A stretch of DNA of 64,000 nt from Mobula hypostoma (Eukaryota), in the NCBI RefSeq assembly GCF_963921235.1, contig NC_086107.1:101744001-101808000 (forward strand), read 5' to 3'. The translations under genes and the position numbers were made by a program. Below the pieces are notes generated by a model. It searched no databases and was not told where the DNA came from. It worked only from the letters and a program-made list of their open reading frames with translations. This document shows positions 2,125 through 56,934 of the stretch, piece after piece; position 1 is the first letter of the stretch, and the number at the start of each line of letters is the position of its first letter.

Positions 2125-4572
2125 TAGTTGAATTTAAGAAACAAGGGTAAGAAGACCCTGATGAGAGCTATTTACAGATCTTCGAACAATAGCCAGGATG
2201 TGGTCTACGAATTACAGCAGGAGGTAGAAAAAGCATGTCAAAAGGGCAATGTTACATTAGTTATGAAGGGTTTCAATATGCAGGTAGATTGGGAAAATCA
2301 AGTTGATGCTGGATCCCAAGAGAGAGAACTTGTGGAATACCTCTGATGAGTTTTTGGAGCAGCTTGTAGTTGAGCCCATTAGGGGATCAGTTTTTCTGGA
2401 TTGGTTATTGTGTAATGAACCGATATCCATAGGGGGCTTAAGGTAATGGAACCCTTAGAAATCAGTGGTCATATTATGATAGAATTTACCTCGCAATTTT
2501 GAGAGGGAGAAGCTAAAGTCAGATGTACCAGTGTTATAGCAGAGTAAAGGGAATTAGAGGCATAAGAGAGGAGGTAGCCAAAGCTGATTGGAAGGGGACA
2601 CTAGCAGGATGATGGCAGAGCAGCAATGGCTGGAGTTTCTGGGAGCAATTCAGAAGGCAGAGGTGAGATACATTCCAAAGAAGAGGAAATATTCTAAAGG
2701 AAGGATGACACAACTTGGCTGACAAAGGAAGTCAAGGCCAACATAAAAGCAAAAGTGAGAACAAAAATTAGTGGGAAATTAGAGGATTGGCAAATTTTTA
2801 AAAACCATAAGGGGAGAAGAGATGAAATATGAAGCTAAGCTAACCAATAATATCAAAAATGATCCTCTTAATTTTTTCAAATATATAAAGAGTATAAGGG
2901 GTAAGAGTAGATATTGGTCTGCTGGAAAATGATGCTGGAGAAATAGTAATAGGGAACAAGGAAATGACAGACAAACTGATTAAGTGTTTTACATCATTCT
3001 TCACTGTGGAAGACACTGCTAGTATGGCAGAAGTTCAAGAGTGTCAAGGGGCAAAAGTGAGTGCAATTGCTACTACTAGGGAGATGGTGCTTGGGAAACT
3101 GAAAGGTCTGAAGGTAGATAAGTCACCTGGACCTGATGGGTTACATCCCGGGATTCTAAAAGAGGTAGCTGAAGAGTTTGTGGAGGCATTGGTAATGATC
3201 TTTCAAGAATCAATAGACTCTGGCATGGCTTGGAGGACTGGAAAATTGCAAATGTCACTCCAAACTTCAAGAAGAAAGGTAGACAGAAGAAAGGAAATTA
3301 TAGGCCAGTTAGCCTGACCTCAGCGGTTGGAAAGATGTTGGAGTTGATTGTTAAGAATGTGGTTTCAGGGTACTAGGAGGCACATGATAAAATAGGCCAA
3401 AGTCAGCATTCTTTCAAGCATGAAATAAAAAGCAGGTGAGACAAAGAAGAATCGGGATTTTCAGAAGGCTTTTGACAAGGTGACGCACATGAGGCTGCTG
3501 AACAAGAGCCAAGGTATTGCAGGAAAGATACTAGCATGGATACAGAATTGCTTCTTGCCAATCAGCCAATGAGAGGGAATAAAGGGATCCTTTTCAGACT
3601 GGCTGCTGGTGACTGGTGGTTTTCCACAGGGGTCTGTGTTCAGACCACTTCTTCTTACATTGTATGTCAATGATTTGGATGATGAAATTGATGGCTTTGT
3701 GGCCAAGTCTGCAAACAATATGAAGATAGGTGGAGGGGCAGGTAGAGTTGAGGAAGCAGAGAGGCTATAGAAGGACTTAAGACAGAATAGGAGAATGGGC
3801 AAAGAAGTGGCAGATAGAATACCGTGTCAAGAAGTGCATGGTCATGCACTTTGGTAGAAAGAATAAAAGCATAGACTATTTTAGCGAGAAAATTCAAAAA
3901 CCTGAGTTGCAAAGGGATTTGAGAGTCTTCGTGCTGGATTCCATAAAGGTTAATTTGCAGGGTGAATTGGTGATGAGGAAAGCAAATGCAATGTTAGCAT
4001 TCATTTCAAGAGGACTAGAATGTAAAAGCAGGGATGTAATGCAGAGGCCGTATAAGGCACTGGTGAGGCCTCATTTGGAGTATTGAGAGCAATTTTGGGC
4101 TCTTTATTTAAGAAAGGATGTGCTGATATTGGAGCAGGTTCAGAGGATGTTCACGGGAATGATTCTGAAAACTAAAGGGTTATCATATGAACAACGATTG
4201 AAGGCTCTGGGCCTGAACTTGCTGGGATATAGAAGAATGAGAGGGATCTCACTGAAGCCTATCAAATGTCAAAAGGCCTATTTAGAGTGGATGTGAAGAG
4301 GATGTTTCCTTTAGTGGGGGAGTCTCGGACAAGAGGGCAAAGCCTCAAGATAGAGGAACCTCCATTTAAAACTAATCAGTGGAATTAATTGCTACAAGCG
4401 GCTTGGAGGTCAGGTGACTGGGTACATTTAAAGCGGAAGTTGATTAGTCAAGGTGTGAAAGGTTATGGGAAGAAAGCAGGAGAATGGGGTTAAAAGGGAA
4501 ATGGATCAGCCATGATGAGAAGGTGAAGCGGACTCAATGGGCCTAATTCTACTCCATATATCTTATGGTCTT
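2125..4572 (+). mobile_element. CR1 LINE, long degenerate ORF2 (EN to RT) and 3' tail
   Basis: IYRSSNN, KSPGPDGLHPGILKEVA, KALVRPHLEY, and 3' end CTAATTCTACTCC...TCTTATGGTCTT. Confidence 0.92.
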
Positions 4573-10267: not shown

Positions 10268-10504
10268 TTAAACGTAAACAACAGGAATTCTGCAGATGCT
10301 GGAAATTCAAGCAACATACATCAAAGTTGCTGGTGAACGCAGCAGGCCAGGCAGCATCTATAGGAAGAGGTACAGTCGACGTTTCAGGCCGAGACCCTTC
10401 GTCAGGACTGACGAAGGGTCTCGGCCTGAAACGTCGACTGTACCTCTTCCTATAGATGCTGCCTGGCCTGCTGCGTTCACCAGCAACTTTGATGTATGTT
10501 GCTT
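10268..10504. mobile_element. Young Penelope-terminus insertion forming a perfect 97-bp inverted repeat
   Basis: Arms 10309-10405 and 10408-10504. TSD TGCTTCATGGTCATT (10253-10267 / 10500-10514). Confidence 0.9.
10373..10410 (-). ncRNA. Minimal type I hammerhead ribozyme motif
   Basis: Minus strand reads CAGTC CTGACGA AGGGTCTCGGCCT GAA ACGT C GACTG: stem I CAGTC/GACTG, CUGANGA and GAAA cores, short stem II, palindromic ACGT stem III, GUC cleavage triplet. Confidence 0.8.
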
Positions 10505-18078: not shown

Positions 18079-18389
18079 AATCACAAGCAAGAGAAAACCT
18101 TCAGATGCTGGAAATCCAAATAACACACACAAAATGCTGGAGAAACTCACCAGGCCAGGCAGTATCTATGGAAAAGATTACAGTCGATGTTTAGGGCCAA
18201 GACCCTTCATTAAGACTGGGTAAAAAGATGAGGAGTCAGAGTAAGGTTGAATTCCCCTCCCCCACTTTCTTACTGACTCCTCATCTGTTTTTTCCAGTCT
18301 TGATGAAGGGTCTCAGCCTGAAACATCAACTATACTCTTTTCCATAGATGCTGCCTGGCCTGCTAAGTTCCTCCAGCATTTTGTGTGTG
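18079..18389. mobile_element. Penelope-terminus inverted pair with decayed hammerheads
   Basis: Inverted arms and TSD TAGCCTGAGTCC (18067-18078 / 18390-18401). Confidence 0.85.
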
Positions 18390-18839
18390 TAGCCTGAGTC
18401 CCGGGCTTTAATATGTCTTTTTGAGTGCCACAGAATTTATAGATCTCTTTCCTTAAATTACAGAGGGTCATGAAGCAAGCTATCAGGGAAAATCCAGAGA
18501 GAATCTCCTATCTAATTGTGTATTAATGCACAATTGAGCATTCATACACAATTAGAGTCAGGACAACATGGTAAGCTTCATTCTTCAGTGGCTCTCAGTG
18601 CAGTATTTACCAAATATTCTTTAGAGGCACAAGGGAATGCAGATGTCTCTGGTCAAGAGGCCACCAAGCAGTGATGTCCATTGATGATGTGGCTCAGACT
18701 TGGCTGTTTTTTGTTGGTATTTGTTGGAAACAGGGCAGAGACATAGGGTTTAGGGTCAGGAATGAGGGGTAGTTAAAGGTCAGGGACAGTAAATTAAGAG
18801 CCTGGGCAGGAAAATAAGTCCAGATTGAAGCACTCTGTG

Positions 18840-21540: not shown

Positions 21541-21675
21541 TTACTTGTTATATTTTATAACTTTAAAACATTAATTCAAAGGAAGACACGGGAGTCTAAA
21601 ATGTGGATCTAATTTTGTGTTTACTTCAAGAGAGCTGTACAGATGTCACATGCCGACATGATGATCTATGCAGTT

Positions 21676-23239
21676 GTTTGTGAACCCTTTGTAATAACCT
21701 GTTTTTCGGCGTTAATTACTCATAAAATGTGGTCTGATCTTCATCCAAGACACAATAATAGACAAACACAATCTGCCTAAACTAATAACACACAAATTGT
21801 ACTTTTCATTTCTTTATTGAATACATTGTTTAATCATTCTCAGTCCAGGCTGGAAGAAGTATGTGAACCCTTGTATTTAATAACTGGTAGAACCTCCTTT
21901 AGTAGAAATAACCTCCACCAAACATTTCCTGTAATTGCAGAGCAGACTTTCACAATGGCAAGGAGGAATTTTAGACCATTCCTCCAAACAAAACTGTTTC
22001 AGTTCATCAATATTTCTGGGATACCTTACTTGAACAGCCCTCTTCAGGTCATACTAAAGCATCTCAATTGGGCTAAGGTCTGGATTCTGACTTGGTCATT
22101 CCAAAACATGATTTTGCTTCTTTTTAAACCATTCTCTTGTTGATTTACTCTTGTTGTTCAGATCATTGTCTTGTTGCGTCATCCAACTTCTATTAAGCTT
22201 CAGGTGACAGACAACTACCCTGACATCCTCCTGTAAAATGTCTTGATACAATTTTGAATTCATGGTTCCCTCCACAATTGCAAGCTGTCCAGGCCCTGAG
22301 GCAGCAAAGCAACCCCAACTAATGATGCTCCTTACACCATGCTTCGCAGTTGGGATGAGGTTTTGGTGTTAATATGCAGTGCCCTTTTCCCTCCAAACAT
22401 CGCTGTATGCATTTCTGCCAAAAAGTTCAACTTTTGTCTCATCTGTCCACAAATCATTTTCCTAGAAGCATTGTGGAACATACAGCTAGTCTTTTGCAAA
22501 CTTGAGACATGCAGCAATGTTTTTTTTTAGGTTCAGTGGTTTCTTCTGTGATGCCATTCCATGACCACCATTCTTGCTCAGCATTTTTTTTCATATAGTG
22601 AACACATGAACAAAGACTTTAGCAACTTCTAGAAATTTCTTTGGGTCTTTTGCTGTTACCTTTGGGTTCTTTTTCACCTCCTTCAGCATTGCACGTTTTA
22701 CTCTTAGTGTGAACTTTGCAAGGTGCCCACTACTAGGAAGAGTACTGAATTTCCTCCATTTGTAGACAATTTCTTCTACCGTGGACTGACGAACACTCGG
22801 GTCCTTAGAAAAGCTTTTGTAGCATTTTCCAGCTTCATGTCTCTCTACAATTCTTCTTCTAAGGTCCTCTGCAAGTTGTTTTGATCAAGGCATAATGCAC
22901 ATAAACAGATGTTCCTTGAGAAGAACTTTGCGTGTGTAAATCCAGCCATTGCTATTCTGCCTTATTTCTGCTAGTGTCCTCTTCCAATCAGCTTTGGCCA
23001 TCTCCTCTCCAATGCTATTGACTCTGTGTCTTTTTTTATAGGGCAGGGCCCCTCTATACTCCACACCTCTAATTTCATTTTATTGATTGGAATACCTGAC
23101 TCCAGATAGCTTTTGTAGAAGGAAAAGTTCACTGAAGTTTCACATACTTTTTTGAACCTACACTGTGATTGTTTAAATGGTGTACTCAGTATTGACGAGT
23201 AGTAGTACAATCTACTGTGTTACTCATTTAGGCAGATGA
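21676..23239 (-). mobile_element. Degenerate Tc1/mariner DNA transposon interrupting the Gypsy 3' LTR
   Basis: Frameshifted transposase remnants (W.DETKVELF, TAKHG, QDNDL.., WND...QNPDLSPIEML). Related inverted ends at 21770-21802 and 23204-23238, and an internal repeat tgtgaaccctt. Confidence 0.85.
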
Positions 23240-23564
23240 CACTCCTCTCTGCTTAGCTATAAACTTCAACTCAATAGAGAATGTATCTCAAGTATATACA
23301 CAGTATATCATATAATACAACTACTACATACAGACATCCACAGCATAGTAAGTTTTAAATTCTCCCACTTAGGCCTAAAGATTTAATCACTGCGGAAGAT
23401 TTATTATTCTTGTGGAATAACATCTTTCCTGACAAGGGAGGTCACTTTGCTTGGCAAGTGAGACTTGTGGCTGTGAAAATAATCTCAGGTTCTGGGGCCT
23501 CCTCCGTGGTGGTTGTAGGAGTTGACTCAGACTGCAGGAAATTATTCTGATAGTGGTAGCCACC

Positions 23565-24106
23565 TTTGTTCTCCTTCCTTTTCTCCTTCTAATTTCTGCA
23601 TCTTGATCTTGGGAAGATGCATTTAATTCACTAGAGTATTTTCTTATTAATCCTTCTATTGTTCTCTTTACAATCTGATCTCTCCTCTTGGTTTTCTCAC
23701 CCCCAACATCATCTGACAAATCTTGTTTTCGTATCTCCATTGACTCCTTTTTTTTAGGCCATTCATCTGTCTGGGCTTTGGTCTTTGCATTTACTTTTAC
23801 AAGCAGCCTTTCACTCCCACTTGAAGTTCATGTACCCAGAAAAGATTCTCATTCTTTATACTCAAAAAAGGCCAATGCTTGCATTTTTCCTGAATCTCCT
23901 TGAACTCTCTTCCAGCTTAAAACCAAGCCACATTTCACAAGTAACTGCCTGATTAACATATCAGAAGTTTTCTCAGATATGCTGCCAACAAAAACAGTTG
24001 TAGTCGGACCACTACTTTTGTCACCTTCATGATTCCTCTGAGCAGCATGGTCCTTCCTTGGTCCAATATTCTTTCCAACCAGAGGCACAGAGGTTGGCAC
24101 CAACAC
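23565..24106 (-). pseudogene. RBM25: Intronless RBM25 retrocopy fragment (RRM and downstream region), disabled
   Basis: Translates to VLVPT...GPTTTVFVGSISEKTSDMLIRQLLVKCGLVLSWKRVQGDSGKMQA...EYKE*...LLVKVNAKTKAQTDEW...TKRRDQIVKRTIEGLIRKYSSELNASSQ, closely matching RBM25. No introns; contains a stop, a deletion and frameshifts. Confidence 0.92.
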
Positions 24107-25056
24107 CCGTTCATCCTCTGTTGGGCCAAAATTCATGGTGTATAACATGGAGACAGTAGTGGCATCATCCAGCACCTTCCTTAATTTGCTTTCAGTTCGC
24201 TTCTTTGCAGGAGATGTGGCATGCAATTGGTGGATGGATTTCTAATCATGTTGTTGTTGACTCAGCCTATCACATCCCCACAAAGCTGGCCGATCTGATT
24301 TTACCACATACAAGCTCAATGTGGCTTTTTGGTTACTGTATTTCACTGTCACGTCATTCCCACTGGAGTTATCTTTTCTCCAGTACAAGTTCTTACATGG
24401 ATACCTACAGGCTTCAGTCTGATATCTTTGAAATGCTGTTCAAATTTATTTTGTGGAATGATAAACAGCTGAACCAGTGTCTAATTCCATTTTAACTAAT
24501 TTACTATTCACTTCTGGTGTAAGCCATATTGCTTGTCTACTGTTAGTTTTCACACTGCAAGTCTCAAGGCTACAATCCTGTGTCACTCTCATCATTGTAG
24601 TTTTTAATCAACAGCACGCAGGTCAATGCTCTCTTTGAAACTACAACTTGACTTTATCTTTTTCTCTTCCCTGTGCAGTCTCTTCATTTTTGTCTGCCTG
24701 ACATACTCTTTGTATGTGTCCTACTTTGTTGCACTTTCTGCAAGTTCGACCTTTAAATCTGCACTTGTTTGATGTATGTGAGCCCCTCCCACAGCAGTAA
24801 CACAATTTGTTCAGCCAGGCTGGTTTCTGTTTAGATGCTGCAATTTTGCTCATGCTCACTTTTATTCCTGACTGTAACTCAATTGCATTTCTGTCTGCCA
24901 TTTCCATTGAAAGAATAATTTCAACTGCTCTTTTAAATGTAAGTTGTGCTTTAGTTAGGAGCCATTTTTGAATGCTTTCTTGAAAGATTCCACAAACTAA
25001 ACGATCTCTCAGTGCATCATCATGCCCATTACTGAACTGACAACGCTCAGACAATC

Positions 25057-25144
25057 AACAGGAATTCTGCAGATGCTGGAAATTCAAGCAACATACATCA
25101 AAGTTGCTGGTGAACGCAGCAGGCCAGGCAGCATCTGTAGGAAT
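25057..25144 (-). mobile_element. 88-bp Penelope terminus inserted in Gypsy gag
   Basis: Near-identical to 10280-10366. TSD GCTCAGACAATC (25045-25056 / 25145-25156). Confidence 0.9.
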
Positions 25145-25440
25145 GCTCAGACAATCTCTTGTATTCAACCATGTATGCTGAAATAGACTCCCCTTCTTTT
25201 TGATTCCACTTATGAAACCTAAGGTGTCCTGTAGTCAACAATAACTTTGATTCTAAATGTTCATGCATTACTTTGACAATATCAGCAAAGCTCATTTCTG
25301 CTGGTTTGGTTGGAGCAGTTAAACCTTAAAGCAAACTGTATGCCTTTAAACTCAATGCATTTAGCAAAATTGGTACCCATTTCTCATTGGCTCTTTCATT
25401 TGCTTCGAAATATTGTTGAATTAGCTCTGTATACATGAAC

Positions 25441-26225
25441 CTGCTATTTAATCAAACTCATCTATCTTTGCAACACATGACCATACACTTCCCCACACAG
25501 TATTTGTTCTGTCATTTCTTTGCCCATTCTCTTAATGTGTCTACTTTCCTCTGCAGACTCCCTGCTTCTTCAACATCACTTACCCCTCCACCTATCATTA
25601 CATCAACCACAAACAAACCTGGCCACAAAGACAATAATTCATCATCAAAATAATTCACATAATAGTGAAAAGAAGCAACTTCAACACCGACACCTGTGAA
25701 ACACCACTAGTCACCAGCAGCCAACCAGAAAGGGACCCTTTACTCTTTGCCTCCTGCTAGTCAGCCAATTCTATCCATGCTAGTATCTTTCCTCAAATAC
25801 CATCGGCTCTTAGCTTGTTTAGCAGCCTCATTGTCAAAGGCCTTCTGAAAATCCAAGTAAACAACAACCGCTGATTCTCCTTTGTCTAACCTGCCTGTTT
25901 TATTCCCTCAAAGAACTCCAACAGATCTGTCATGCAAGATTTCCCCTTATAAGGAAACCATCCTGACTTCATCCTACTTTACCATATGCCCCTAAGTAAC
26001 AGAAAACTTCATTCTTATTAATAGACTCCAACATCTTACCAACTACTGGTCAGGCTAATTTGCCTATAATTTCCTCTTTTTGCCTCTCTCTATTCTTAAA
26101 GAGCAGAGTGACATTTGCGATTTTCTAGTCCGCTGGAACTATTCCAGAATATAGTGATTTTTGAAAGATCACTGCTTTTGCATCCGCAATCTCTTCAGCC
26201 ACCTTTTTCAGATCCTAGGTATCTT
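25441..26225 (-). mobile_element. CR1 RT fragment truncating the Gypsy 5' end
   Basis: Reverse-complement CR1 RT sequence similar to 3240-3900. Confidence 0.85.
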
Positions 26226-35919: not shown

Positions 35920-37521
35920 CTTGGGAAGCTGAAAGGTCTAAATATAGATGTCCCCGGACCAAAGGACTGCACTCCAGGATTCTGAAAGAGGTAGCTGAAG
36001 AGATTAGAGAGACATTATTAGTGATCTTCAAAAACTCACTAGATTTTGGAATAGTTCTAGAGGACTAGCAAATTGCAAATGTCACTCCACTCTTTAAGAA
36101 GGCAGGGAGGGAGGCAAAAGAAAGGAAATTATAGGCCAATTAGCCTGACTTCAGTGGTTGGGAAGATGTTGGAGTCAATTGTTAATAAGGATGTGATTAC
36201 AGTGTACTTGGAGACACATGATTAAAAAAAAAGGCCATAGTCAGCATGGTTTCATTAAGGGGAAATATTGCCTGACAAATCTGTTAGAATTCTTTGAGGA
36301 AACAGTAGGCATGCTAGACAAAGGAGAGTCAATGGATGTTATTTACTTGGATTTTCAGATGGCCTTTAACAAGGTGCCATACATGAGGGGGCTTAACAAG
36401 ACAAGAACCCATGGTGTTACAGGAAAGATACTAGCATGGATAAAAAATTAGCTGAATGGCAAGAAGCAAAGGATCAGAATAAAGGGGGGCCTACACTAGT
36501 TGGCTGCTGGTGACAAGTGGTGTTTCTCTGGGATTAGTACTGGGACTGTTTCTTTTCACATTATATGTCAACAACTTGGATGACAAAATTGATGGCTTTG
36601 TGACCAAGTTTGCAGATGATCCATATAGGTGGAGGGGCAGGTAGTGTTGAGAAAGCAAGAAATCTACAGGTGGAGGTCAGGTTAGGAAATGGGCAAAGAA
36701 GTGGCAGATGGAATACAGTGTAGTGAAGTATATGGGAATGAACTTTAGTAAAAGGAATAAGAGCATAGACTGTTTTCTAAACAGGGAGCAAATTCAGAAA
36801 TCAGAGATGCAAAGGGACTTGGAAGACCTCATGCAGGATTCCCTAAAGGTAACTTGCAGGTTGAGTCAGTAGTAAGGAAAGCAAATGCAATGTTAACATT
36901 TGTTTCTACAGTAGAATATAAAAGCAAGATTGTAAAGCTGATGCTTTATAAAGCATTGGTCAAACTGCATTTACAGTATTGTGAGCAGCTTGGGGCCCCT
37001 TATCTAAGAAAAGACGTGCTGGCTTTGGAAGGGTCCAGTAGAAGTTCATGAGAATGATTCCAGGAATGAAAGGGTTAAGATATGAGGAGTGTTCGATGGC
37101 TCTAGGCCTGTACTCGCTAGAGTTTAGAAGAATGAGGGGGATCGCACTGAAACCTATCGAATATTTAAAAACCTAGATAGCGTGGATGTGGTGAAGATGT
37201 TTCTTATAGTGGGAGAATCTAGGATCAGAAGGCACAGCCTCAGAATAGAGGGGCATCCCTTCAGAACAGAGATGAGAAAGAATTCCTTTAGCCAGGGGGT
37301 GATGAATCTGTGAGATTCATTGCCAGACAGGTATGGAGGGCAAGTCTTTGAATATATTTAAAATGGAGGGTGATAAGTTCTTGATTAGTAAGGGAGTGAA
37401 GGGCTATGGGGAAAAGGCAGGTGAATGGGGTTGAAAGGGATAATAAATCAGATATGATGGAATGGTGGAGCAGACTTGATGGGCTGAATGCCCTAATTCT
37501 GCTCCTATGCCTTATGGTCTA
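35920..37521 (+). mobile_element. CR1 ORF2 RT and 3' end
   Basis: SQHGFIKGKYCLTNLLEFFE, DVIYLDFQMAFNKVP, KFADD and tail. Confidence 0.92.
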
Positions 37522-42035: not shown

Positions 42036-42984
42036 GACTCCAGGTAAACATTAACTGGAATTATGGAAATTGAAGAAATTACAGCAGTAAGATTATTGTT
42101 CCGTTTGGCATAATTGACTGTGCACTACATCAATACGTTTGTATGTTTAACCAAAATAATCGAATGTGGTGGCATTGATATTATTGTACTCGTATAAAAA
42201 TTAGTAATCATTAACATTTAGAGTTTGAGAATCATGGCATTAAGATATGCTGGAAAAGTACAGAAAACAGCAGATTGAAGCAGTTCTGTTTGTGAAATTT
42301 TCACAGTTAAATATAATCACCAATTTGTTCCAAAAACATTTCCAAAGGTACCCTTCAGATTAATTTAATGTATTTTATTAATATATTCTGGGGTATTCTA
42401 GATCACCTGCACATGCATTGCGGTTTCTTTTATTAGCCAATGAATAAAGCATAGTGAAGAGATAGATAACTGTTTCTAGTCTTTAAAATAGCAGAATCAG
42501 GCAACATTTGTGAAGAAACAAGTTAATGTTTTAGGTCAGTCTCTGTCTTTGAGCAGATACTTCTTGACCTGCTGCTGAGTATTTTCAACATTTTCTGTTT
42601 GTATTGACATTCTTTTGCTTTTTTTATGGATAATCTGTAAACTTTTTGAGCATCTAACCCTTAAATGTTTTATTTTTATTTTAATTGGGTATTTGATACT
42701 GCCTGGAAAAGCTTGAAGCAGTAACACACACAAAATGCTAGAGGAACTGATGCAATCAATCTTGATGAAGGGTTTCAGCCCAAAGCATTGACTCTCCATT
42801 GCTGGTGCCTGATCTACTGAGTTCCTCCATAATCGTGTGTGTGTTTACTCTGGATTTCCAGCATCTGCAGAATTGCTTGTGTTCAAAATTTAAAACAGTG
42901 GGATGATTGAGTTTCTACAAGCACATCCAACATTTCTTACTGTTTTATAGCTCCACCTGTTAGAAATAAACTGATTCTAAGTGA

Positions 42985-43159
42985 AGAACAGGAATTCTGC
43001 AGATGCTGGAAATTCAAGCAACACACATCAAAGTTGCAGGTGAACGCAGCAGGCCAGGCAGCATCTCTAGGAAGAGGTGCAGTCGACGTTTCAGGCCGAG
43101 ACCCTTCGTCAGGACTAACTGAAGGAAGAGTGAGTAAGAGATTTGAAAGTTAGAGGGGC
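42985..43159 (-). mobile_element. Penelope-terminus insertion
   Basis: 16-bp TSD AACTGATTCTAAGTGA (42969-42984 / 43160-43175). Confidence 0.9.
43081..43116 (-). ncRNA. Minimal hammerhead ribozyme motif
   Basis: AGTC CTGACGA AGGGTCTCGGCCT GAAACGTC GACT within the TSD-flanked insertion 42985-43159. Confidence 0.78.
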
Positions 43160-56554: not shown

Positions 56555-56756
56555 ATCACAAACAAAAGAAAACCTGCAGATTCTGGAAATGCAAGCACAT
56601 ACACAAAGTGCTGGAGGAACTCAGCAGGCCAGGCAGCATCTATGGGAAAGAGTACAGTCGACGTTTCAGGCTGAAACCCTTCAGCAGGACTGGACCCAAA
56701 ACGTTGTCTGTATTCTGGCCTGGCCTGATGCGTCTCTCCAGCATTTTGTGTGTATA
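56555..56756. mobile_element. Penelope-terminus inverted insertion
   Basis: TSD ATTTGAGATCCA (56543-56554 / 56757-56768). The hammerhead core is mutated to CTGCTGA. Confidence 0.85.
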
Positions 56757-56934
56757 ATTTGAGATCCAGTCATTTTTCAGTGGTATTATTTGAAAGAGTA
56801 ATTGATCTACTGAAAACAAAACAGAATAATTGCATTTATTGTTTGGCATCAATCAACCAGACTTGGGTAATTTTCATTATGCTACAATGGCCAGAAGTAG
56901 CATATTACAAAGAAACATATGTGAATGGATTCTG

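What the first reader, a model, noticed from the sequence alone, without database searches (positions are those of the whole stretch)
21546..25440. Gypsy LTR element that has swapped its pol core for a spliced RBM25 mRNA segment
Seen in sequence, on the minus strand and in order: gag with zinc knuckles, DTG protease, the start of the pol linker (ESKLRKVLDDATTV, ~24150), ~540 nt of intronless RBM25 (24106-23565), the pol C-terminal tail, a PPT and an LTR remnant. RT, RNaseH and the integrase core are absent. The RBM25 piece has no poly(A) or TSD and is co-oriented with the element, unlike a LINE-made processed pseudogene. Established: LTR elements can capture co-packaged mRNAs by template switching. 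Inference: this is such a capture, and the purine-rich 3' junction (AGGAGAACAAAGG) may be the microhomology. Multiple genomic copies would mean a host-gene-carrying non-autonomous LTR family.
Basis: partly seen in the sequence, partly recalled or inferred. Interest (0 to 1): 0.8.

Follow-up and report, generated by a model that had tools for sequence, protein, structure and literature searches.

The report
Gypsy family carrying spliced RBM25 exons
This is one dead copy of a jumping gene in a cartilaginous fish whose copying enzymes are replaced by an intron-free piece of the host splicing-factor gene RBM25; the hybrid likely arose by a known copying slip and likely multiplied to hundreds of copies or more, far beyond the published cases I read.

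Summary
Confirmed, with corrected coordinates. On the minus strand a decayed Ty3/Gypsy element keeps gag, protease and pol linker (to ~24159), the pol tail and a PPT. About 2.5 kb of RT, RNase H and integrase is replaced by ~600 nt of RBM25 (24163 to ~23563, not 24106). The piece crosses three positions that are introns in fish RBM25 DNA and carries a 16-codon insert seen in only 3 of 122 RBM25 proteins. It joins pol in frame over a ~5-nt overlap, with no poly(A) or TSD. The 5' LTR is lost and a Tc1 transposon breaks the 3' LTR. Contigs from three organism labels cover the RBM25 part at about 1,200-2,500 times single-contig depth (a rough scale, not a count), and diverged contigs bridge both junctions, so this is a multi-species non-autonomous family. 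The mechanism is known (Tan 2016, template-switch retroposition). The scale is unusual: Bs1 has 1-5 copies. The scan had already noted this family at 8 or more other places in the same genome. The 3' microhomology and the LTR remnant remain untested.

The parts
24640..25470 (-). Ty3/Gypsy gag, decayed, its first codons missing; two CCHC zinc knuckles at ~24800-24700
   Evidence: tblastn P0125/P0126/P0129 E~1e-88; zf-CCHC E 0.0024, below the curated cut-off
25055..25141 (.). ~87-nt short repeat inserted in gag, flanked by a 12-15-nt target-site-like direct repeat
   Evidence: 97.8% to 10276-10366; the same 12-mer at 25156-25145 and 25056-25045
24159..24639 (-). aspartic protease (DTG) and pol linker up to the breakpoint
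   Evidence: P0125 residues ~270-419; Pfam protease at P0125 297-383; loose ends of 128 contigs at 24159 in run X9
24159..24163 (-). 5' junction: ~5-nt overlap (GCCAC) shared by pol and RBM25, in frame
   Evidence: Gypsy match runs to 24159 (table 7); RBM25 match starts at 24163; both in frame -1. RBM25 side inferred from codons, not from DNA
23563..24163 (-). spliced RBM25 fragment: end of one exon, a 16-codon insert (24154-24107), then four exons covering the RRM up to the KKEE exon end; one stop, a small deletion and frameshifts
   Evidence: intron positions from fish loci L001/L002/L005 and read-through ORFs (31 of 41)
23375..23562 (-). pol C-terminal tail (~60 codons) with stop
   Evidence: P0131 last 27 residues E 7e-6; frames
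23242..23374 (-). 3' UTR and polypurine tract (23250-23242)
   Evidence: sequence; contigs span tail to PPT (table 8, records 1, 2, 9, 17)
23239..23241 (-). first 3 nt (TGT) of the 3' LTR; other copies continue with different sequence from here
   Evidence: loose ends at 23239 in 149, 17, 147 and 185 records of X1, X19, X9, X16; LTR identity inferred
21671..23238 (-). decayed Tc1/Sleeping Beauty-type DNA transposon inserted in the 3' LTR, outer left end missing
   Evidence: HTH_SB E 1e-14 at 22591-22884; inverted repeat 23237-23139 / 21771-21867, 72% over 99 nt
21546..21670 (-). putative 3' part of the 3' LTR, ending TAACA
   Evidence: position and TG...CA termini only; not aligned to another copy

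Best explanation
This is a dead copy of a Gypsy retrotransposon whose RT, RNase H and integrase genes are replaced by a spliced ~600-nt piece of host RBM25, likely captured when reverse transcriptase switched templates to a co-packaged RBM25 mRNA and back, and likely copied afterwards hundreds of times or more by enzymes from intact relatives. Steps: (1, inferred) during minus-strand synthesis RT left the element RNA in the pol tail, copied RBM25 mRNA from the KKEE exon end back to the Ala-Thr codons, and returned to the element at a ~5-nt overlap in the pol linker; (2, shown) the result lost ~2.5 kb of pol, kept gag, protease, tail and PPT, and is in frame at the 5' join; (3, shown as presence, inferred as mechanism) the chimera exists as many diverged copies in at least three organism labels, so it spread as a non-autonomous family, likely before those lineages split; (4, shown) this copy then decayed: stops, frameshifts, a short repeat in gag, a Tc1 insertion in the 3' LTR and loss of the 5' LTR.
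For: Pol discontinuity: P0125 match stops at residue 419 and resumes only in the tail; RT 504-645, RNase H 708-839 and integrase 950-1148 all fall in the gap, 0 hits in the window. Spliced cargo: in fish loci L001 and L002 introns lie at LLA|KCG, KLQ|AFG and NG|, and 31 of 41 representatives with the IRQLLA motif read into an intron there, while the window reads straight through (104-residue ungapped match to P0121, 77%). No poly(A) and no TSD at either end (only A8 run is internal, at 23755), whereas the short repeat in gag does carry a TSD-like repeat. Both ends lie inside the coding sequence (RBM25 is ~820 aa; the piece ends near residue 255 of P0006). Family: 20448, 22486 and 19129 records laid from runs X1, X9, X16 on 1.5 kb; median summed depth over RBM25 is 1,200-2,500 times and over the junction bins 480-960 times the depth of long single contigs; 8 of 32 listed contigs bridge the 5' junction and 3 of 32 the 3' junction with 31 or more letters each side, each ~14-19% different from this copy. 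The anatomy matches Tan et al. 2016 (PMC5131818 sections 5, 6, 8, 9 read).
Against: No genome was held, so copies could not be counted, and their LTRs, TSDs and flanks were not seen. Summed contig depth is not a copy number and overlapping short contigs inflate it. None of the 8 listed X1 contigs bridges the 5' junction by the 31-letter rule (best: 25 letters). The 5' overlap is short, and its RBM25 side rests on codons with one wobble base unknown. The 3' overlap was not measured. In this copy the RBM25 frame and the pol-tail frame differ at the 3' join. The tail is tied to this lineage by 1 of 5 C-termini tested. This copy has no 5' LTR, so its own LTR-type integration cannot be shown.
Confidence: 0.87

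Rival explanations
1. A LINE-made RBM25 retrocopy inserted into a genomic Gypsy copy; a later deletion removed its 3' part, poly(A), TSD and the pol core; this shortened element then multiplied.
For: LINE-driven retroposition is common in cartilaginous fishes (14,081 retrocopies, assigned to non-LTR elements; bioRxiv 10.64898/2026.06.26.734816, passages and section 6 read). A deletion can hide poly(A) and TSD.
Against: Needs two events. The 5' join is a clean in-frame overlap of ~5 nt. No poly(A) or TSD remnant. The 3' end sits at an exon end, ~1.7 kb short of the stop codon.
Confidence: 0.06
2. The chimera formed at the DNA level: break repair or microhomology-mediated joining between a Gypsy copy and an RBM25 cDNA or retrocopy, followed by LTR-type amplification.
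For: Short overlaps and replacement of internal sequence are also products of end joining (established knowledge). The final anatomy is the same.
Against: Needs free cDNA plus a 2.5-kb loss at the same site. Sense orientation and replacement of pol repeat in other cargo families noted by the scan (unchecked notes), as co-packaging predicts and random repair does not.
Confidence: 0.05
3. The many copies arose by segmental or tandem duplication, not by retrotransposition.
For: Flanks of other copies were not seen here.
Against: Other copies diverge from this one right at its private insertion (loose ends at 23239 in all 4 runs), and bridging contigs differ by 14-19%. No second copy lies in the 64-kb window.
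Confidence: 0.02

Closest known systems
LTR-mediated retrocopies of animals (Tan et al. 2016, Genome Res 26:1663, PMC5131818; abstract and sections 5, 6, 8, 9 read)
   Same: Partial spliced mRNA replaces part of the internal ORF; truncated at both ends; no poly(A) or TSD; short microsimilarity at the join (median 6 bp there, ~5 nt here); sense orientation; in-frame potential; secondary amplification as a non-autonomous element.
   Different: Their amplified cases have a few insertion sites. Here depth and bridging contigs point to hundreds of copies or more, shared by three organism labels. Cartilaginous fishes were not among their species.
Maize Bs1 (as summarised in PMC5131818 section 9 and PMC13317346 passages; the original papers not read)
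   Same: LTR element carrying spliced host exons, with all copies sharing switch points.
   Different: 1-5 copies, three parental genes, reported to give a chimeric protein. This copy is dead and has one cargo.
Ty3/Gypsy 'K02A2.6-like' gag-pol elements of fishes (P0125, P0126, P0129)
   Same: Gag with two CCHC knuckles, protease, linker and C-terminal tail align; the relatives have the PR-RT-RH-IN order in one ORF. Assignment to the Mag clade is recalled and was not tested.
   Different: RT, RNase H and integrase are absent and replaced by host sequence.

Membership tests
Ty3/Gypsy LTR retrotransposon (derivative) | gag and protease homologous to elements with PR-RT-RH-IN order | tested here: met
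Ty3/Gypsy LTR retrotransposon (derivative) | PPT followed by TG at the 3' LTR start | tested here: met
   23250-23239; loose ends at 23239
Ty3/Gypsy LTR retrotransposon (derivative) | paired LTRs, PBS and 4-6-nt TSD | tested here: inconclusive
   5' LTR and PBS lost in this copy; 3' LTR broken by Tc1; other copies not available whole
Autonomous Gypsy element | RT, RNase H and integrase present | tested here: not met
   0 hits in the window
LTR-mediated retrocopy (Tan 2016) | host insert is spliced | tested here: met
   three intron positions crossed; introns taken from other vertebrates, not from this species
LTR-mediated retrocopy (Tan 2016) | insert replaces internal ORF sequence (element discontinuous) | tested here: met
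   ~840 codons of pol missing
LTR-mediated retrocopy (Tan 2016) | no poly(A) and no TSD around the insert | tested here: met
   a 6-mer seen near both ends depends on a letter private to this copy (97% of X1 depth reads otherwise at 24158)
LTR-mediated retrocopy (Tan 2016) | microsimilarity at the 5' switch point | tested here: met
   ~5 nt, 24163-24159; RBM25 side from codons only
LTR-mediated retrocopy (Tan 2016) | microsimilarity at the 3' switch point | not testable with these tools
   no intact pol or RBM25 DNA of this species at that site; one search found no close pol tail
LTR-mediated retrocopy (Tan 2016) | secondary amplification with shared switch points | tested here: met
   8 of 32 and 3 of 32 listed contigs bridge the two junctions; junction depth 480-960 times single-contig depth
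LINE-made processed pseudogene | poly(A) tail, TSD, and continuous target on both sides | tested here: not met

The most novel reading that the evidence does not exclude
The founder made a Gag-protease-RRM fusion protein (the 5' join is in frame), and the RBM25 RNA-binding domain helped the element's own RNA get packaged or processed. That would explain why RBM25-bearing copies make up roughly 54-86% of the depth of this whole Gypsy lineage in three organism labels. Such cargo families, not LINEs plus selection, would then shape the odd retrocopy repertoire reported for cartilaginous fishes.
Probability: 0.12. Interest if true: 0.82.

Novelty: new variant of a known kind. Interest (0 to 1): 0.5.

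Why it matters
Template-switch capture of host mRNA by LTR elements is established, but the published amplified cases I read have a few copies. Here a vertebrate splicing-factor fragment rides in a family that appears to be as abundant as the rest of its Gypsy lineage, in several species. That gives a large natural data set for dating one capture and testing whether cargo can be selected for the element's benefit. It also affects pseudogene counts: a 2026 VGP preprint lists unusual top retrocopy parents for cartilaginous fishes, SUDS3 among them, and attributes the pattern to non-LTR activity and selective filtering. One capture followed by amplification is an alternative that can be tested directly. 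The cargo also preserves an RBM25 isoform with a 16-codon insert found only in two shark models and one unnamed transcript-like protein among 122.

Tried and rejected
No own genome was held, so no direct copy count. Earlier-findings look-ups by sequence and by relatives returned nothing. A search for close pol-tail proteins gave 0 of 7 candidates at E<=10. A search of 1.84 billion representatives with the 130-aa junction ORF gave 267 hits; none of the best 150 covered both the pol linker and RBM25 (earliest query start 26), so no chimeric protein is on record there. An exact junction pattern in metagenome contigs gave 0 matches. Rfam on the whole window gave 0 matches. No RNA holder was listed. 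Run X19 is only guessed to be RNA: 3 of its 8 listed contigs bridge the 5' junction, which I do not count as shown transcription. A 6-mer near both ends of the insert was rejected as a TSD (private letter, pol discontinuous). Literature searches: RBM25+retrotransposon (29 papers, 20 listed, none on this by title or abstract start); non-autonomous LTR+captured+host gene+vertebrate+copies (6); cartilaginous fish+LTR retrotransposon+retrocopies (1); shark+Gypsy+processed pseudogene+LTR+transduced (0); Mobula+transposable elements+Gypsy (0); elasmobranch search (38, 10 listed, none with the term elasmobranch). The preprint's main text has 0 occurrences of RBM25. Its supplementary tables were not seen and may list RBM25. 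Repbase and Dfam are not searchable here and may hold this family.

Full report
Observation. The region was read on the minus strand and translated in three frames. A homologue search with the gag ORF gave 13 proteins. The full-length gag-pol P0125 (1319 aa; Pfam order protease 297-383, RT 504-645, RNase H 708-839, integrase 950-1148) aligns to 25439-24152 with residues 19-419 (E 3e-88). Residues 420-1250 of P0125 and 415-1250 of P0126 give 0 hits at E<=1 anywhere in the window. The C-terminus of a related gag-pol (P0131, last 27 residues) aligns at 23455-23378 (E 7e-6). This was 1 of 5 C-termini tested; the other four gave no hit there. The stop codon follows at 23377-23375, then a short UTR, a purine tract at 23250-23242 and TGT. 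About 840 codons (~2.5 kb) of pol are therefore missing.

The insert. The 85-aa piece 24106-23849 finds 186 proteins, all 120 listed being RBM25 or unnamed look-alikes; the best is Heptranchias perlo P0001 at 79%. The cluster of P0001 has 3 members. The unnamed P0122 reads ATTVSMLYTMN directly before the RRM exon, identical to the window at 11 of 11 residues from 24163. It includes a 16-codon insert (24154-24107) of the same length as in isoform X2 (P0121), which gives a 104-residue ungapped match at 77%. Only 3 of 122 RBM25 proteins carry this insert. It is likely an alternative exon, but its DNA was not seen.

Splicing. Vertebrate genomic RBM25 loci from metagenome contigs (7 loci; L001, L002, L005 and L006 examined) show GT-AG introns after IRQLLA, after GKLQ and after the NG of the next exon in L001 and L002, and a long intron after the KKE exon end in L005. 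Among 145 new representatives, 31 of the 41 with the IRQLLA motif read on into an intron there. The window crosses these three internal positions without intervening DNA, and its 3' end coincides with the KKEE exon end, where P0001 reads into an intron. The intron positions come from other vertebrates, not from this species.

Junctions. There is no poly(A) near either end (the only A run of 6 or more is internal, at 23755) and no credible TSD. A 6-mer near both ends relies on a letter private to this copy: 11,624 of 12,004 depth units in X1 read otherwise at 24158. By contrast the 87-nt repeat inserted in gag has a 12-15-nt target-site-like repeat. At the 5' join, 128 contigs of run X9 match the pol linker to 24159 and then leave the window sequence, while the RBM25 match begins at 24163. 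That gives a ~5-nt overlap, with pol and RBM25 in the same frame (-1). The RBM25 side of the overlap is inferred from codons. At the 3' join (~23570-23563) both sides are purine-rich, but the overlap could not be measured. In this copy the RBM25 and tail frames differ there; a private indel cannot be excluded.

Copy number and spread. No genome was held. Twenty runs from 9 organism labels and 11 studies hold part of 23150-25500; I laid 4 of them on 23100-24600 at 80%. X1 (organism A, possibly the source sample), X9 (C) and X16 (I) gave 20448, 22486 and 19129 records, covering 30 of 30 bins. Median summed depth over the RBM25 bins is 1577, 2490 and 1213 times the median depth of the long listed contigs. 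The 5' junction bin is 665, 955 and 476 times and the 3' junction bin 785, 857 and 528 times. The tool warns that summed depth is no copy number and overlapping contigs inflate it, so I take this only as 'hundreds or more'. RBM25 depth is 0.54-0.64 of the tail depth and 0.72-0.86 of the protease/linker depth in the three runs, so RBM25-bearing copies seem to be a large part of the lineage. Of the 32 contigs listed (out of more than 65,000 pieces), 8 bridge the 5' junction with 31 or more letters each side (X16 3, X19 3, X9 2, X1 0) and 3 bridge the 3' junction (X1, X9, X16 one each). They differ from this copy by ~14-19%, so they are other loci. In X1, 84% of laid records are under 95% alike, so the family is old. 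In X19, only guessed to be RNA, RBM25 bins are about twice as deep as the flanks, as the host mRNA would give; this shows nothing about transcription of the chimera.

State of this copy. A LINE-like fragment (69-74% to repeats at 3155-3846 and 35976-36735; the CR1 label is recalled) abuts gag at ~25470, so the 5' LTR, PBS and gag start are gone. After PPT+TGT, 149, 17, 147 and 185 records of the four runs continue with other sequence, while this copy runs into a Tc1-type transposon (HTH_SB E 1e-14; 99-nt inverted repeat, 72%) that ends at 21671. The next 125 nt end in TAACA at 21546 and are likely the LTR's 3' part; this was not aligned to another copy. CpG depletion in the insert (o/e 0.13) is like that of gag (0.17) and the window (0.23).

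Mechanism. Shown: replacement of the pol core by a spliced, doubly truncated, sense-oriented host fragment, an in-frame 5' join with a short overlap, and many diverged copies with the same joins in three organism labels. Inferred: double template switch by RT in a particle that co-packaged RBM25 mRNA, then mobilisation in trans by intact relatives. The loose ends at 24159 show that members without this cargo exist. Rivals (LINE retrocopy plus deletion; DNA-level joining; segmental duplication) need extra events or fit the data less well.

Comparison. Tan et al. 2016 (PMC5131818; abstract and sections 5, 6, 8, 9 read) describe this anatomy in flies, mosquito, zebrafish, chicken and mammals, with microsimilarity at 25 of 29 fly junctions (median 6 bp) and secondary amplification to a few sites; Bs1 has 1-5 copies. 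A plant review (PMC13317346, passages) gives further LTR captures. So the mechanism is known and the scale is the variant. A VGP preprint (10.64898/2026.06.26.734816; passages and section 6; supplements not seen) reports 14,081 retrocopies in cartilaginous fishes with unusual top parents including SUDS3 and explains them by non-LTR activity and filtering; RBM25 is not in its main text. My searches found no paper on this family, but repeat databases could not be searched.

Earlier notes. The scan had recorded this RBM25 family at other places of the same genome (11 notes fit, 8 shown), with claims of 500 to thousands of copies, and sister families with SUDS3, SH3KBP1 and CLIP1 cargo. They gave me the lead to test copy number. 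My depth data agree in order of magnitude. I did not test the sister families.

Verdict. A real, high-copy, multi-species example of a known mechanism; interest 0.5. The bold reading, that the in-frame RRM helped the element spread, is not excluded (probability 0.12) and can be tested by per-copy frame counts and dN/dS.

Noticed in passing
window 24154-24107; P0001, P0121, P0122: RBM25 has a 16- or 20-codon insert before the RRM exon in two Heptranchias models and one unnamed protein only (3 of 122); likely an alternative exon of cartilaginous fishes, preserved in the captured cDNA. One other model has a different short insert at the same position.
   Followed up: partly
window 10274-10504 (also 18083-18390, 42981-43119, 56558-56774, 25055-25141): Dispersed short repeat family forming long hairpins; at 10309-10504 the two 97-nt arms are 100% complementary with a 2-nt spacer. 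The core resembles a minimal hammerhead motif of Penelope-like elements (recalled); Rfam found nothing at gathering score.
   Followed up: partly
window 21671-23238: Decayed Tc1/Sleeping Beauty-type transposon with long internal inverted repeats; its outer left end and most of the LTR start are missing together.
   Followed up: partly
window 25476-26220: LINE-like fragment abutting the truncated gag; 69-74% to repeats at 3155-3846 and 35976-36735.
   Followed up: no
table 7, window 24554: 139 records of run X16 leave the window sequence at 24554 in the gag-protease linker, not among the top loose ends of X1 or X9; may mark a subfamily in that organism.
   Followed up: no
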